This document shows positions 11,610-19,558 of a stretch of DNA of 64,000 bases, one piece after another (within the stretch, counting starts at the first letter, position 1; every line of letters starts with the position of its first letter). Origin of the DNA: a virus. The translations under genes were made by a program, and so were the position numbers. The notes below the pieces were generated by a model. That model saw only the letters and a program-made list of their open reading frames with translations. It did no database searches and was not told where the DNA came from. The DNA lies in IMG/VR virus record IMGVR_UViG_3300032308_002010, positions 96,001 through 160,000 of that record, one strand, 5' to 3'.

Positions 11610-11936
11610 ATGCGCACACTATTTTTAATCGTTGGAATGCTCTGCGTGATGGGTATGGGAAAAGCCTGCGCCGATACCGTGCTAATGTTCTCTGCAGACT
11701 GGTGTAAGTACTGCAAACTGGCCAAGAATGATTTACTGGCGAATAAAGACGAAGTGGCGGCGTGGGGCGTGACAGTTATTGATGCCGATGTGAGCAAAGA
11801 TCTGGTTCGCAACTATGGCGTGAAGACGCTGCCGACGTTTATCTATCTAAATGACGCCGGGGAAGAACTGGATAGAGTGGCAGGCTATAAGGGATATAAC
11901 CGGCTACGGCGTTGGGTTGAAAAGAGCGCGCGCTGA
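11610..11936 (+). CDS. exported thioredoxin-family protein
   Basis: FSADWCKYC active site, cis-Pro loop VKTLPT, N-terminal signal peptide. Confidence 0.85.
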   Translation: MRTLFLIVGMLCVMGMGKACADTVLMFSADWCKYCKLAKNDLLANKDEVAAWGVTVIDADVSKDLVRNYGVKTLPTFIYLNDAGEELDRVAGYKGYNRLRRWVEKSAR

Positions 11937-11965
11937 TAGCTAAAGAAAAGACGCAGCTTTTCCTG

Positions 11966-12163
11966 TTATAGGGTCTTTACGGCGCTGAACTGTTTTATCA
12001 TCTGCATCACATAACTGAGCAGCGCCGAGTTATCTCCCGGAAGCTCAGTTATGACGTGGTGCATGATTCCGAGCACGAGTACAAGAGCCTGTCGGTCATG
12101 CTCTTTTGACGCGTGCTGTACCGCTTGAAACATCATGACTGTGATGATATCCGCAGGGGTCAT
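11966..12163 (-). CDS. hypothetical protein
   Basis: ORF with SD (AAAGGA) upstream. Confidence 0.55.
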   Translation of the reverse strand: MTPADIITVMMFQAVQHASKEHDRQALVLVLGIMHHVITELPGDNSALLSYVMQMIKQFSAVKTL

Positions 12164-12173
12164 TAGGTTCCTT

Positions 12174-12222
12174 TAGTTAAAAAAAAGCGCATGCAGGGTC
12201 AGGGTGTGATACCTGCATGCGC
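12174..12222 (-). terminator. intrinsic terminator
   Basis: 11-bp stem GCGCATGCAGG/CCTGCATGCGC plus T8 and the variant tail TTTAACTA. Confidence 0.85.
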
Positions 12223-12227
12223 TCCGC

Positions 12228-12449
12228 CTACTGGGCTGAGAGTGTTGTCCACTCGCCAATGTAGGTCTGTTCCAACGGATTGATGATCCGAGGCTTGGGC
12301 ACCGGGGCAGGGCGTGGAGCCGGGGGAGCTATACCGACGGGCTGTTGCCAGCGCGCCGTAAACTCGTCCCAGCCTTTCGGGGCCTTGGCTTGATCCGAAA
12401 CCCACCCAATGAGCGCCAGACTACCAAGGATCATAAGCAGCGTGGTCAT
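12228..12449 (-). CDS. small membrane-anchored protein
   Basis: N-terminal hydrophobic helix, Pro-rich linker, SD. Confidence 0.6.
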   Translation of the reverse strand: MTTLLMILGSLALIGWVSDQAKAPKGWDEFTARWQQPVGIAPPAPRPAPVPKPRIINPLEQTYIGEWTTLSAQ

Positions 12450-12509
12450 GCTATTTCCTTTCTTTCAATCGTGACGGGCAAGACGTAATTTTTGGCTTAC
12501 GCCTATCCG

Positions 12510-13196: not shown

Positions 13197-13478
13197 CTAC
13201 GAAACAGGCTCGAACTCGGCGTCGATCACCGTGTAGCTGTCGTAGTCGTCGTTCAGGATTGCTGCCTCTGCCGGGATGCACTCGCAGACGCCCAGCGAGT
13301 GGTGGCAGTAGCAGCAGCGCTCGGTGTCGGTATCGGGCACCGGCAGCACGAACACAACCATCACGTCCCGGTAGTCGTCCACGTTGACATTCACAGCCGG
13401 GTTGTTGCGCAATTGACTAATCATCTCATCGTCCTCCTTGAAGAGAGAAATAAAACTGCCGTCGTCTCGTGACGGCAC
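13197..13478 (-). CDS. hypothetical protein with CCxCxxxxGxCxC motif
   Basis: ORF downstream of promoter motif copy 4; start uncertain. Confidence 0.55.
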   Translation of the reverse strand: MPSRDDGSFISLFKEDDEMISQLRNNPAVNVNVDDYRDVMVVFVLPVPDTDTERCCYCHHSLGVCECIPAEAAILNDDYDSYTVIDAEFEPVS

Positions 13479-13606
13479 ACGCTAATGGTCTCTCGCCATT
13501 AGACGGCCCTAACATGTCGCCGGTTAGGGGGTGCGGCTGAGGGTACGTATAACTTCACGCGTAAGGCCAGTGGCTATACCACTGCCGCGGCGAGAGCTAT
13601 AGGTCC

Positions 13607-13645
13607 TCAATAGATATGCCCGGATTTTTGGGTTTATTTAGCTGC
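13607..13645 (-). promoter_or_regulatory. promoter-like motif copy 4
   Basis: tcaatagATATGCCCGG-13nt-TTTAGCTG. Confidence 0.75.
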
Positions 13646-13650
13646 GGGCC

Positions 13651-13692
13651 GATAGCTAAAAAAAAAGCCGGCAGGGGAGCGCACCCCTGCCG
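13651..13692 (-). terminator. intrinsic terminator ending TTTAGCTATC
   Basis: GGCAGGGG/CCCCTGCC stem plus T9. Confidence 0.85.
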
Positions 13693-13701
13693 ACTCTTGG
13701 C

Positions 13702-14127
13702 GAATTAACGAGTCGCCACCCGTGCCGAAGCGACCAATCGGTCGCCAAGAAAGCGTTAGCACAAGAAACGCTCGCGAGGACAGGTATCACTACCCGCCTA
13801 CGCCCTGCAGCCGTTTGTTAGGTTACAGACAAGTTCGCACTGTACGGGCGCAAACTTTGATTACTGAAAATCCGTCTGGCAGGTCTTTCACCTGCACCAC
13901 TCGCTCCCCTAGTCATATGTAGTGTAGTCGAGTGGAGCCACTTGGAATAGCCACGAGGCCCGGGCAGGGCTTGCCCGCTATTCCGCCATCTACCCTAACG
14001 GTTCCTGCAAAACATTTCACAAAAACCGCTCGTCACAGCCCTCTGCATGCACCTAGAGATAGGTTCATACACATGCTTCTCGCGAGCGCTTCTTGTGCCA
14101 ACGTCTGGATTCTAGCATCCATGTTGG
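13702..14127 (-). ncRNA. candidate large structured ncRNA (~430 nt)
   Basis: 25-bp closing helix 13754-78/14079-103 and at least 8 nested hairpins; mismatches become G.U on the minus strand; no credible ORF. Confidence 0.65.
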
Positions 14128-14415
14128 CTACGTCAACGTATCAATATAGTGCTGCGTCACGCACACATAACGCGTAACGATTTCTTCGGCTTCACTTCCG
14201 GGGCAGCGCTGGTCTAACTTTTGGGCCAGCGCGTCCATTGCCTTGCGGATATTTAACAGCGCACGGCGAAGTTGTTTCACTTCGATCTCCGCGTCTGTTT
14301 TATACCTCGTCCCGCTCTTCGTGTTCACCTGCGGTTCCAACGCTGTTTTCTCCTTGTGTACTACTTCCGTCCACCATTGGTTGTTCCAGTTCACTGCCGT
14401 CCTCGTCGCTGGCAT
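14128..14415 (-). CDS. hypothetical protein (true start probably ~14326)
   Basis: Helical, coding-like ORF in an operon. Confidence 0.5.
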   Translation of the reverse strand: MPATRTAVNWNNQWWTEVVHKEKTALEPQVNTKSGTRYKTDAEIEVKQLRRALLNIRKAMDALAQKLDQRCPGSEAEEIVTRYVCVTQHYIDTLT

Positions 14416-14599
14416 CTTGATTCACTACTATTAGTAGCGCTTCCTTGAGGGTGTCGATCAGGGTGTTCGCACAATCATCCACGACTTTACGCAGATGCTC
14501 CATCCTGTCAATCGTCTGGCGCATCTCGTCTCTCGTTTTTACCAGCGTTTCGGCGAGCTTGAGCAACGCCTGCGCCATCGCTATCGACAAGTTATCCAC
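14300..14599 (-). CDS. hypothetical coiled-coil protein
   Basis: SD AGGAG, operon context. Confidence 0.65.
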   Translation of the reverse strand: MDNLSIAMAQALLKLAETLVKTRDEMRQTIDRMEHLRKVVDDCANTLIDTLKEALLIVVNQDASDEDGSELEQPMVDGSSTQGENSVGTAGEHEERDEV

Positions 14600-14611: not shown

Positions 14612-15097
14612 TCACAAATGAGCTTTCTTTTGCCGCTGACACTTTCGCGCGTATGTCAGCGATTCTTCGTCCGTCGTCGCCACGATCAACCCACGCAGTT
14701 GATCGTCCGGTTTCGTGACAAGGATTTCTTCCTGCCATTCACCCGCCATCGTTGCTTTGACGTCTAATTCCGTCTTGTCAGGCCGCCAAAGCAATAGCGT
14801 ACAGGCAATGACGTAACCCGCCGGAACTTCGAGCAAAACCGGCTGCACGTCCTTCGACAGGTCTAAGGTTCCGCTTTTGTAGACTGGAATATCAAAACCA
14901 GCGGCGTCCTCGGCGTCTCCGTGGATGTACACCGTTACAAAACCAACACCGTCAGGCGGATTCACGAACTGCGCAGTTTTTCTGGCGCGAAAGTAAATCT
15001 TTTTATTGCCAGAATAAACTTCTGCAATCTGATTCTCTGTGTCGTGCCAATCGGGAATTACCGTCAGCATTACGCTACTCCTTTTTACGAAGGTCAT
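14612..15097 (-). CDS. hypothetical protein
   Basis: Operon context; coding-like composition. Confidence 0.65.
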   Translation of the reverse strand: MTFVKRSSVMLTVIPDWHDTENQIAEVYSGNKKIYFRARKTAQFVNPPDGVGFVTVYIHGDAEDAAGFDIPVYKSGTLDLSKDVQPVLLEVPAGYVIACTLLLWRPDKTELDVKATMAGEWQEEILVTKPDDQLRGLIVATTDEESLTYARKCQRQKKAHL

Positions 15098-17908: not shown

Positions 17909-17911
17909 GTA

Positions 17912-18256
17912 TGGAGGCGGCGGGAATCGAACCCGCGTCCAGAGATATCTCCAGAAAGAACGTCTACGTGTGTAGGCAGTTGTTGTTTACACTCCTGCCA
18001 AAGTTAGCCGATTATCGGCGTCAGGTGGGCTACCACCATCTTGCCCTTTCTTACTGGGCCAGATCAGCCGATTATCGGCGTCAACCTGATTGGGCAATAA
18101 GGCTCAGGTCGCCTCACTCACTGGCCTATTAACTAGGCAGCGAGGGCCGGAGCATAAGCGCCAGCTAGAAACGTAATCGGCTTTTAACGTGGCCCACCGA
18201 TCAACCACGACACGCAGTCCTAACCTTCCTTATCCTGTCGAAACCAGTACGCCCCC
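17912..18256 (-). ncRNA. ssrA: tmRNA; tag (A)GAYAPALAA
   Basis: 5' GGGGGCGTACTGGTTTCGACAGG; 3' GGACGCGGGTTCGATTCCCGCCGCCTCCA with G3.U acceptor pair; pk1 CGTGG/CCACG x GATCGG/CCGATT; TAG-CT-GGC resume context and ALAA-stop. Confidence 0.95.
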
Positions 18257-19457: not shown

Positions 19458-19558
19458 TACGCCCGCAGGGAATCGAACCCCGACCTACAGGTAATCAGCC
19501 TGTATCCTTTCGGACCGAGAATATAAGTCTCGTGTGCTAACCGTTACACCACGGGCGC
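19458..19558 (-). tRNA. atypical 101-nt tRNA-Ile carrying two anticodon-like arms (UAU and GAU)
   Basis: Acceptor GCGCCCG/CGGGCGT+A; D arm GTGT/GCAC; CGAGA-CT TAT AT-TCTCG; GTCC-GAAA-GGAT; ACAGG-CT GAT TA-CCTGT; AGGT; T arm CGGGG-TTCGATT-CCCTG. Confidence 0.85.

What the first reader, a model, noticed from the sequence alone, without database searches (positions are those of the whole stretch)
13702..14127. ~430-nt ORF-free, heavily paired RNA closed by a 25-bp helix
Seen: 13754-13778 and 14079-14103 form a 25-bp helix whose two mismatches are G.U only on the minus strand. Inside are a 14-bp G.U-rich hairpin (13998-14029), a 10-bp hairpin (13831-13857), GGAAUAG/CUAUUCC (13944-13984) with a nested CGGGCA/UGCCCG, CCACUCG/CGAGUGG, a GAAA-containing hairpin (13879-13895) and CAGAC/GUCUG. 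Further hairpins follow just before a strong terminator (13651-13692). I could not find RNase P, SRP, 6S, group II D5 or tmRNA signatures. Inference: a large phage ncRNA in the size class of GOLLD/ROOL/OLE-type RNAs, possibly a new class.
Basis: partly seen in the sequence, partly recalled or inferred. Interest (0 to 1): 0.82.

Follow-up and report, generated by a model that had tools for sequence, protein, structure and literature searches.

The report
New structured RNA gene, jumbo phage
This stretch of an uncultured ~194-kb phage is a real, stand-alone gene for a roughly 445-base, intricately folded non-coding RNA that matches no catalogued RNA family. Its job is unknown; one conserved loop hints, on a single evolutionary event, that two copies may stick together.

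Summary
Verdict: the finding is real. On the minus strand, a conserved sigma70-type promoter (14136..14109) leads straight into a 25-bp closing helix. An intrinsic terminator (13697..13664 plus a U-tract) ends a transcript of about 445 nt.

I collected 18 distinct copies, all from related ~200-kb phage contigs.
- In 17 close copies, 117 core pairs are 99.2% paired, and 31 pairs changed on both sides (1-6 in slid controls).
- A 57%-identical copy (L189) keeps 97 of 97 hand-registered helix positions paired, 31 of them changed on both sides.
- Many invariant G.U pairs fix the strand and the RNA level.
- No ORF is conserved.
- Rfam 15 gives nothing except noise on the terminator.

One claimed element fails. 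The 14-bp G.U-rich hairpin is specific to this window. The conserved fold has a short hairpin plus a long-range helix there instead.

Function is unknown. The most variable hairpin carries an invariant loop whose GUAC palindrome becomes GAUC in L189. GOLLD and OLE show this pattern at intermolecular kissing loops. It rests on one event, so it is weak evidence.

An S4-domain gene sits nearby in some relatives but not in this genome. Expression could not be tested.

This scan has already reported the same family from other genomes (e1-5403770, e1-5403778, e1-5340462).

The parts
14109..14136 (-). Sigma70-type promoter: -35 TTGACG, 16-nt spacer, TGn-extended -10 TAGAAT. The predicted start is at about 14103-14101, the first bases of P1.
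   Evidence: Consensus scan, 10 of 12 matches. Both hexamers are invariant or nearly so in 7 copies, while the spacer and the bases after the -10 vary. The match alone is not above chance genome-wide: 3 found, 3.0 expected.
13754..14103 (-). Structured core of 350 nt closed by the 25-bp helix P1 (14103..14079 with 13778..13754).
   Evidence: 117 pairs are 99.2% paired in 17 copies, and 31 pairs changed on both sides against 1-6 in slid controls. In L189, 97 of 97 registered positions stay paired.
14045..14076 (-). P2 (14076..14071 / 14050..14045) with a conserved 6-nt bulge and inner stem P2a (14064..14060 / 14055..14051), capped by an invariant UCUC loop.
   Evidence: One covarying pair in P2. 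P2a never varies in the 17 close copies and is imperfect in L189.
14021..14043 (-). P3 hairpin. The stem is hypervariable. The loop keeps RCGAG in the 17 close copies and GAGC in all 18. L189 carries an extra GCAA-capped extension here.
Evidence: 4 covarying pairs in 17 copies and 5 in L189.
14005..14015 (-). P4 5' strand, pairing with 13810..13800. This long-range helix, with four U.G pairs, closes the inner domain.
   Evidence: 98.9% paired in 17 copies with only one-sided changes. L189 has 3 double changes and all 8 compared pairs kept.
13800..13810 (-). P4 3' strand.
   Evidence: As for the P4 5' strand.
13990..14001 (-). P5 5' strand region. It pairs with about 13811..13823 in one of two registers: A = 13999..13994 / 13822..13817, or B = two short helices either side of a small internal loop.
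   Evidence: Invariant in 17 copies. L189 favours register B, with one U-A to C-G double change, whereas register A needs a bulge.
13944..13984 (-). P6 (13984..13977 / 13951..13944) with a G+C-rich apex containing an 8-nt palindrome.
   Evidence: 3 covarying pairs. 6 of 8 pairs are replaced in L189. The apex pairing is ambiguous, and the palindrome is not kept in L189.
13897..13935 (-). P7, a long irregular hairpin with a 3x3 internal loop whose middle pair covaries.
   Evidence: 3 covarying pairs. In L189 the middle pair of the loop goes from C-G to U-A.
13879..13895 (-). P8 hairpin with loop UGAAAGA. The loop core GUGAAAG is conserved in L189.
   Evidence: One covarying pair, in L200. The loop differs in L200.
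13826..13878 (-). P9 (13878..13874 / 13830..13826) enclosing P9a and P9b.
   Evidence: 2 covarying pairs. All 5 pairs are replaced in L189.
13831..13857 (-). P9b, the most variable stem of the RNA. Its invariant 7-nt loop CCGUACA (13847..13841) holds the palindrome GUAC and is the candidate dimerisation loop.
   Evidence: 7 covarying pairs, with the loop invariant in 17 copies. In L189 the loop is CUGAUCA, with palindrome GAUC or UGAUCA.
13779..13798 (-). P10 hairpin stacked directly on P1. The loop is GUGA, or GACA in three copies and GUAG in L189.
   Evidence: 100% paired, with only one-sided changes.
13699..13753 (-). 3' tail outside P1: hairpin P11 (13746..13729) and hairpin P12 (13717..13699). 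The P12 loop is invariant in the 9 whole-gene copies.
   Evidence: The P12 stem has 3 covarying pairs among 9 copies. An 11-nt stretch of the tail is also kept in L189, although the rest of the tail differs.
13655..13697 (-). Intrinsic terminator: a 14-bp G+C-rich stem and a run of 9 U, followed by a TAGCTA element.
   Evidence: Terminator scan. One covarying pair and 5 one-sided changes. Homology with L107 and L112 ends right after the U-tract.
14128..14415 (-). Upstream gene p95 (95 aa, no known family). It lies upstream of the RNA in every copy: directly before it in the close copies, and with a small S4-domain ORF in between in L189.
   Evidence: tblastn and locus tables. No Pfam, PHROG or Atlas match.

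Best explanation
What it is. This is an independent gene for a new family of highly structured, trans-acting non-coding RNA, carried by one clade of ~200-kb phages.

Shown:
- Two nested multi-helix domains are clamped by a 25-bp terminal helix, followed by a short hairpin tail and an intrinsic terminator.
- Selection acts on the RNA fold of the minus strand.
- The promoter hexamers are conserved and placed so that transcription would start at the first base pairs of the clamp.

Inferred:
- The host sigma70 polymerase makes a transcript of about 445 nt early in infection.
- Its 5' end is buried in helix P1, as in other stable RNAs.
- It acts as a folded particle rather than by antisense pairing.

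Mechanism I think most likely (about 0.3-0.35). The RNA self-associates through the palindromic loop of hairpin P9b. It then works as an RNA-only or RNA-protein scaffold or decoy, in the manner proposed for ROOL, GOLLD and OLE.

The confidence of 0.8 is for the gene-and-fold claim. It does not cover the mechanism.
For: Fold:
- 144 pairs over the whole gene are 99.0% paired in 9 copies, with 30 double changes against 2-7 in slid controls and 0 of 500 shuffles reaching that.
- 117 core pairs are 99.2% paired in 17 copies, with 31 double changes against 1-6.
- L189 is 57% identical over aligned positions. It folds on its own into the same architecture and keeps 97 of 97 registered pairs, 31 of them changed on both sides.

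Strand and RNA level:
- Invariant G.U and U.G pairs occur in P1, P4 and P10.
- The fold z-score is -6.35 on the minus strand against -3.9 on the plus strand.

Gene boundaries:
- Promoter and terminator were found by scan. The hexamers are conserved around a variable spacer.
- Homology with two relatives stops at the U-tract.

Non-coding: no ORF is conserved.

Selection:
- The core is 80-98% identical where p95 DNA is 72-96% and p221 DNA is 72-92%.
- A copy whose p95 is only 50% identical still scores 263.6 bits against the domain model, compared with 262.5 for the window itself.

Not a known family: Rfam 15 finds nothing.

Not antisense: conserved loops have no complementary sites in the genome beyond chance.

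Dimer hint: the P9b loop is invariant on the most variable stem in 17 copies. In L189 it switches from GUAC to GAUC. That is the adjacent-nucleotide palindrome switch that marks symmetric intermolecular kissing loops in OLE and GOLLD (PMC12286853).
Against:
- The promoter match by itself is at chance level in this genome. L189 has no obvious sigma70 promoter, and there the RNA may be co-transcribed with the preceding ORF.
- Sequence diversity is small: one tight group plus one divergent copy. Many double changes therefore trace back to a few lineages.
- My registration of L189 helices was done by hand.
- The palindrome switch is a single event with roughly a 0.07-0.2 chance probability, and a 4-bp kissing contact is weak.
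- Loop-loop complementarity inside the RNA is not above a shuffle null.
- Nothing here points to a specific cellular target.
Confidence: 0.8

Rival explanations
1. The RNA is the RNA half of a ribonucleoprotein. It works by binding a phage or host RNA-binding protein, for instance the small S4-domain protein encoded next to it in some relatives, or a ribosomal or stress protein that it sequesters.
For: - In L189 a 63-aa S4-domain ORF (Pfam PF01479, 28 bits against a cut-off of 22.8) lies between p95 and the RNA, with no terminator in between.
- S4-like ~72-81-aa ORFs lie 1-1.5 kb upstream on the same strand in the genomes of L107, L003, L007 and L006, and in L200, L204 and L206.
- The same annotation appears on two further contigs.
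- Junctions and several loops are sequence-invariant.
Against: - No S4 match at E up to 1 exists in the window's own 95%-complete genome, nor in the near-complete genomes of L004 and L005. The protein therefore cannot be an obligate partner.
- Most S4 hits are below Pfam's cut-off.
- The genomes are close kin, so the linkage may reflect one ancestral arrangement.
- p95 and p93 have no recognisable RNA-binding family.
Confidence: 0.25
2. The RNA is a ribozyme: either a divergent member of a known catalytic class, such as RNase P or a group I-like intron, or a new one, perhaps serving the phage's tRNA and tmRNA cluster 4 kb away.
For: - Its size and complexity are ribozyme-like: two nested multi-way junctions and invariant junction nucleotides.
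- The phage carries a tmRNA and six tRNA genes nearby.
Against: - No hit to any RNase P, group I, group II or small-ribozyme model, even at E = 10 on a 501-nt query.
- The fold found is fully nested, with no P3/P7-type or P4/P6-type pseudoknot supported.
- A hairpin (P10) sits between P4 and P1, where RNase P has none.
- The element has no exons. It has its own promoter and terminator.
Confidence: 0.08
3. It is a cis-acting part of the p95 message, acting as a 3' UTR stabiliser or a processing cassette. The 25-bp P1 would serve as an RNase III site, rather than the RNA having a function of its own.
For: - p95 lies upstream of the RNA on the same strand in every copy.
- A near-perfect 25-27-bp helix is long enough for RNase III (established knowledge of the enzyme).
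- In L189 the RNA appears to be co-transcribed with upstream ORFs.
Against: - A conserved promoter lies between p95 and the RNA.
- The RNA evolves far more slowly than p95.
- About 120 conserved base pairs and invariant junctions are far more than a stabiliser needs.
- The P1 sequence is not reused elsewhere in the genome.
Confidence: 0.07
4. It is a DNA-level element, such as an origin, a packaging or recombination site, or a cassette boundary, and the apparent RNA fold is a by-product of inverted repeats.
For:
- p161 next door is an insertion unique to this genome.
Against: - Many conserved pairs are G.U on the minus strand only. They would be mismatches in DNA cruciforms and on the other strand.
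- Covariation extends to short irregular helices and to a helix whose arms are about 200 nt apart.
Confidence: 0.02

Closest known systems
ROOL and GOLLD RNAs (Rfam families; cryo-EM structures in PMC12286853)
   Same: - Large, ornate, protein-free-looking RNAs of unknown function, encoded by phages and prophages, often near tRNA islands.
- Here a tmRNA and six tRNA genes lie 4-7 kb away.
- Conserved loops sit on variable stems.
- The palindrome-to-palindrome loop switch resembles GOLLD loop L21a.
   Different: - No sequence or structure match to either model.
- This RNA is much smaller: 350-445 nt against about 580 and over 800 nt.
- It has one long terminal clamp helix.
- No supported pseudoknots.
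- It is confined to one narrow phage clade.
- Multimerisation is not shown.
OLE RNA (dimer with a symmetric kissing loop, L9.3)
   Same: A candidate symmetric kissing loop whose central tetranucleotide stays palindromic when it changes.
   Different: OLE is about 610 nt, bacterial, and tied to the OapA/B/C proteins. There is no model match here and no such proteins nearby.
Housekeeping stable RNAs of similar size (RNase P RNA, tmRNA)
   Same: - 350-450 nt.
- The 5' and 3' ends are paired in a terminal helix.
- Multi-domain fold with long-range helices.
- Own promoter and terminator.
   Different: - No match to RF00010, RF00011, RF00023 or related models.
- The phage's real tmRNA is elsewhere, at 17909-18256.
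- The helix order does not fit RNase P.
Stable RNAs of unknown function in phage tRNA regions (T4 species 1 and 2; T5 stable RNAs). From my own knowledge and earlier notes e1-5380192 and e1-5698094, not checked here.
   Same: Phage-encoded, abundant-type structured RNAs without a known role, lying in accessory or tRNA regions.
   Different: Those are about 100-140 nt and are processed out of tRNA precursors. This one is three times larger and has its own promoter.

Membership tests
GOLLD (Rfam) | Match to the family covariance model (conserved 3' domain). | tested here: not met
   No hit at the gathering score or at E up to 10. The divergent copy also gives none.
ROOL (Rfam) | Match to the family covariance model, with its multi-pseudoknot fold of about 580 nt. 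| tested here: not met
   No hit. The length is 350-445 nt, and no pseudoknot is supported.
GOLLD/ROOL/OLE as a functional kind (ornate RNAs that form RNA-only multimers) | Homo-oligomerisation through intermolecular kissing loops and A-minor contacts. | tested here: inconclusive
   One palindromic loop switches from GUAC to GAUC in the one divergent copy. This is a single event.
OLE RNA | Model match and association with oapA/oapB/oapC. | tested here: not met
   No model hit. The neighbours have no such families.
RNase P RNA (bacterial A/B, archaeal and minimal types) | Model match, conserved regions CR-I to CR-V, and P4 directly flanked by P2/P1. | tested here: not met
   No hit at E up to 10. 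Hairpin P10 lies between P4 and P1.
tmRNA | tRNA-like domain, tag reading frame, model match. | tested here: not met
   The only tmRNA in the window is at 17909-18256.
Group I / group II introns | Interrupts a host gene, has the P3-P7 pseudoknot or domain V, and matches the model. | tested here: not met
   No model hit. It has its own promoter and terminator and no flanking exons. The fold is nested.
6S RNA and SRP RNA | Model match (a long irregular hairpin with a central bubble for 6S; an SRP domain IV motif for SRP RNA). | tested here: not met
   No hit. The architecture is multi-branched.
CsrB/RsmZ-type CsrA sponge (considered because an earlier unchecked note reports a phage csrA) | Many GGA or ANGGA motifs exposed in hairpin loops. 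| tested here: not met
   By eye I find only about three GGA triplets in the sequence read, and none in a hairpin loop of the conserved fold.
Riboswitch or transcription-attenuating leader | A structured 5' leader followed by a regulated ORF in the same transcript. | tested here: not met
   The terminator comes with no ORF between it and the promoter, and the next unit has its own promoter box.
Retron, DRT or guide RNAs (bridge RNA, omega RNA, tracrRNA) | An adjacent reverse transcriptase, recombinase or nuclease gene. | tested here: not met
   The neighbours are small proteins without such domains. No Rfam hit.

The most novel reading that the evidence does not exclude
This is a new, compact (about 350-nt core) class of phage RNA that assembles with itself through the palindromic P9b loop into an RNA-only dimer or larger particle. 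That would be a small cousin of the ROOL, GOLLD and OLE assemblies, made from the first minutes of infection by the host polymerase.
Probability: 0.3. Interest if true: 0.8.

Novelty: new variant of a known kind. Interest (0 to 1): 0.62.

Why it matters
Large RNAs with this much conserved structure are rare. Nearly all characterised ones turned out to be ribozymes, ribonucleoprotein cores or, most recently, self-assembling RNA cages.

This one is short enough for routine in-vitro transcription, chemical probing and cryo-EM. It has a well-defined gene (promoter, clamp helix, terminator). It also comes with a secondary-structure model backed by more than 30 compensatory pairs in the close copies and 31 in a 57%-identical copy.

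If the palindromic loop really mediates self-association, it would extend RNA-only quaternary structure to a much smaller RNA and to another phage lineage. If instead it binds a protein or catalyses a reaction, it marks an unknown step in how jumbo phages handle their hosts.

Its reach is limited for now. The family is seen in only about 19 contigs of one uncultured phage clade, with no host and no expression data.

Tried and rejected
- **Known families.** Rfam 15 at the gathering score over the whole window, and at E up to 10 on 2 kb, on 501 nt and on the divergent copy, gave only terminator noise.
- **Cultured phages.** No GenBank phage match, even in distant blastn mode.
- **More distant phages.** Phages sharing the p221 gene (L008-L020) showed no copy by nhmmer, by covariance model R1, or in five whole records including one 98% complete.
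- **Pattern scans.** One IMG/VR scan was wasted on a mistyped register. The extra 18- to 19-mer hits in L111, L118, L119, L121 and L122 are chance matches.
- **'Empty hairpin' lead.** I searched for the outer P1 arms 8-38 nt apart and found 59 loci, all from unrelated sequence families. The lead was not reproduced.
- **Reused clamp stem.** P1 does not recur in the genome, so it is not a reused 'standard clamp' stem.
- **Antisense targets.** Conserved loops have no complementary sites in the phage genome beyond chance.
- **Intramolecular loop-loop contacts.**
  - The count of complementary unpaired-segment pairs of 5 nt or more, and of 6 nt or more, is not above a shuffle null.
  - My P2-bulge with P9b-loop idea fails in L189.
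  - P3 loop with P12 loop gives 6-7 bp in the 9 whole-gene copies but has no clean equivalent in L189, so I leave it as unproven.
  - A 10-bp complementarity between the P7 3' strand and the terminator 3' arm was not pursued.
- **More divergent copies.** Two contigs found through p95 (P0030, P0031) came back without DNA.
- **Neighbour p95.** It has no Pfam, PHROG or Atlas relatives.
- **Published catalogue.** A catalogue of more than 10,000 candidate viral RNA motifs (PMC10690425) could not be cross-checked by sequence.

Full report
**Where it is.** The window is bases 96001-160000 of a 193.8-kb IMG/VR virus record, estimated 95% complete. Genes around the finding run on the minus strand. The region is an accessory block of small ORFs without known families. 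A tmRNA and six tRNA genes lie 4-7 kb away.

**The gene.**
- On the minus strand, a sigma70-type promoter (TTGACG, 16 nt, TGn TAGAAT; 14136..14109) ends six bases before the first base of a 25-bp helix.
- A 14-bp G+C-rich stem followed by nine U (13697..13655) lies 445 nt downstream.
- Such a promoter match is no more frequent in this genome than in shuffles: 3 found against 3.0 expected.
- Its reality therefore rests on conservation. In seven aligned copies both hexamers are fixed, while the spacer and the bases between the -10 and P1 vary freely.
- Two relatives (L107, L112) lose all similarity to the other seven copies immediately after the U-tract, which marks the 3' border of the unit.
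- The gene is single-copy in its genome.

**Homologues.**
- blastn and nhmmer on loci fetched through the flanking p221 gene, exact-word scans of IMG/VR, JGI metagenomes and GTDB genomes, and look-ups through the upstream p95 protein gave 17 distinct close copies of the core. These are at least about 79.5% identical among the first nine.
- They also gave one divergent copy, L189, from a complete 203-kb phage. It is 57% identical over aligned positions. It was found only because p95 led to it, and the P4-domain covariance model R1 then scored it at 31 bits, E = 3.7e-8.
- Every contig that extends far enough past p95 has the RNA.
- More distant phages that still share p221 do not have it.
- No cultured phage in GenBank matches.
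- One copy sits on a 5-kb contig binned into a bacterial MAG (L120). One p95 homologue is labelled Betaproteobacteria MAG. These are weak hints at the host and nothing more.

**The fold.**
- RNAalifold on the copies gives P1 closing a five-way junction (P2, P3, P4, P10). P4-P5 then closes a second five-way junction (P6, P7, P8, P9 with P9a and P9b).
- Over the whole gene in nine copies, 144 pairs are 99.0% paired with 30 pairs changed on both sides. Sliding the partners by 1-3 columns leaves 36-44% paired and 2-7 such pairs, and no shuffle out of 500 reaches the observed values.
- For the core in 17 copies the figures are 117 pairs, 99.2% paired and 31 double-changed pairs, against 1-6 in the slid controls.
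- Most of that signal comes from a few lineages. P4, P5, P8 and P10 hardly vary in this set.
- L189 fills the gap. Folded alone, it adopts the same architecture.
- After I registered its helices by hand against the window, all 97 compared positions are standard pairs and 31 differ on both sides. These include 7 in P1, 5 in P3, 3 in P4, 6 in P6 and all 5 in P9.
- The hand registration is a weakness, but the result leaves little room for doubt.
- Invariant G.U and U.G pairs occur in P1, P4 and P10 (four in P4 alone). Together with the stronger minus-strand z-score (-6.35 against -3.9), they show that selection acts on an RNA of the minus strand and not on DNA.

- The 14-bp G.U-rich hairpin at 13998-14029 exists in this sequence, and the single-sequence MFE fold contains it.
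- It is only 78.6% paired across nine copies, with no compensation.
- Its two halves belong to P3 and to the long-range P4.
- P5 has two possible registers. L189 favours the one made of two short helices.
- The apex of P6 is unresolved.

**Coding potential.** The longest ORFs on either strand differ in place, frame and length from copy to copy. Single-base indels are scattered through the alignment.

**Selection strength.**
- Against six relatives, the core is 80-98% identical where p95 DNA is 72-96% and p221 DNA is 72-92%.
- A contig whose p95 is 50% identical carries an RNA domain scoring as high as the window's own.
- Unpaired columns of the core are 73% invariant and paired columns 69%. 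So both junction sequence and pairing are constrained.

**Identity.** Rfam 15 has no match at the curated thresholds. At E up to 10, on ever shorter queries and on the divergent copy, only the terminator hairpin draws weak chance hits. That excludes, as far as models can, RNase P, tmRNA, SRP, 6S, group I and II introns, small ribozymes, OLE, ROOL, GOLLD, HEARO, raiA and the riboswitches. There is no reverse transcriptase, recombinase or nuclease gene beside it.

**Function.** Nothing identifies a target.
- Conserved loops have no complementary sites in the phage genome beyond chance.
- Internal loop-loop complementarity is not above a shuffle null.

Two leads remain.
1. *The P9b loop.*
   - P9b is the most variable stem (7 of 10 pairs covary), yet its 7-nt loop CCGUACA is identical in all 17 close copies. 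In L189 it is CUGAUCA.
   - The central GUAC becomes GAUC, and the palindrome lengthens to six bases.
   - Two adjacent bases cannot pair with each other within one chain. The cryo-EM study of OLE, ROOL and GOLLD used exactly this kind of palindrome-to-palindrome switch as evidence for symmetric intermolecular kissing loops (PMC12286853, section 8).
   - It is one event, with a naive chance probability of about 0.07-0.2. I rate self-association at roughly 0.3.
2. *The S4-domain gene.*
   - L189 has a 63-aa S4-domain (RNA-binding) ORF between p95 and the RNA.
   - Weaker S4-like ORFs lie 1-1.5 kb upstream in many relatives.
   - The window's genome and two other near-complete genomes have none. 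It can therefore only be an optional partner.

The 25-bp P1 is long enough to be an RNase III substrate, but the predicted start at its first pair means no processing is needed to define the 5' end.

**Relation to earlier work in this scan.**
- The same family was reported from other genomes as a new folded RNA of lake jumbo phages (e1-5403770, e1-5403778, e1-5340462). I reach the same verdict independently.
- This report adds the divergent copy, support for P4, P5, P6 and P9, the rejection of the 14-bp hairpin, the palindromic-loop observation and the S4 linkage.
- I could not reproduce the 'empty hairpin in relatives' statement, nor test the claim of reads in RNA libraries.

**Verdict.**
- This is a real gene for a new family of structured phage RNA. 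Function is unknown and the distribution is narrow.
- By kind it stands beside ROOL and GOLLD without being a member of either.
- Confidence is 0.8 that it is a stand-alone structured ncRNA gene of a new family.
- The self-association mechanism stands at about 0.3, a protein-bound scaffold or decoy at 0.25, and a ribozyme below 0.1.

Noticed in passing
window 13440-13650 (-): The next unit downstream starts with a TAGCTAAATA...GGCATAT box. It holds three hairpins whose stems covary among six or seven relatives and ends in a terminator-like hairpin (13477..13457). An AAGGAGG site and an ATG follow directly, and that ATG opens p93 at its residue 19. It looks like a structured attenuator-type leader or a separate ~150-nt sRNA in front of a 75-aa Cys-rich protein.
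   Followed up: partly
L189 3372-3563 (+); also L207, L192, L193, L194, L200 625-843: A small (63-94 aa) S4-domain or S4-like ORF recurs in the same accessory block as the RNA in many relatives, and lies directly next to the RNA in L189. It is absent from the window's own genome.
   Followed up: partly
window 19458-19558 (-): Rfam's tRNA model matches a 101-nt stretch end to end (53.9 bits), yet ARAGORN does not call it. This would be a tRNA with about 30 extra bases. Another first-stage note reads it as a tRNA-Ile with two anticodon arms.
   Followed up: no
window 14612-15097 (-): The 161-aa ORF has no counterpart in any of the related loci, whereas the genes on both sides do. It is a cassette insertion private to this genome.
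   Followed up: partly
window 11813-12499: This stretch has only short ORFs (65-73 aa) yet is 75-95% identical to relatives, as conserved as the neighbouring genes. It could hold small proteins or further RNAs.
   Followed up: no
window 14128-14599 (-): Two overlapping ORFs in different frames (95 aa and 99 aa, 116-nt overlap) both give protein-level matches in relatives. Gene callers elsewhere start p95 at an internal Met (66-70 aa, or 78 in L189-type contigs), so the true start is uncertain.
   Followed up: no
L124, L126 and about 25 further IMG/VR loci (for example L124 3496-3528): A 33-nt inverted-repeat element with TGGCAC-containing arms recurs nearly unchanged in many ~35-kb viral contigs. 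A second 56-nt family recurs in others. Both are unrelated to this RNA and turned up only through a pattern scan.
   Followed up: no
window 13897-13906 and 13668-13677 (-): Ten bases of the P7 3' strand are complementary to the 3' arm of the terminator in all nine whole-gene copies. This is a possible alternative pairing that could affect termination, or it may be coincidence.
   Followed up: no
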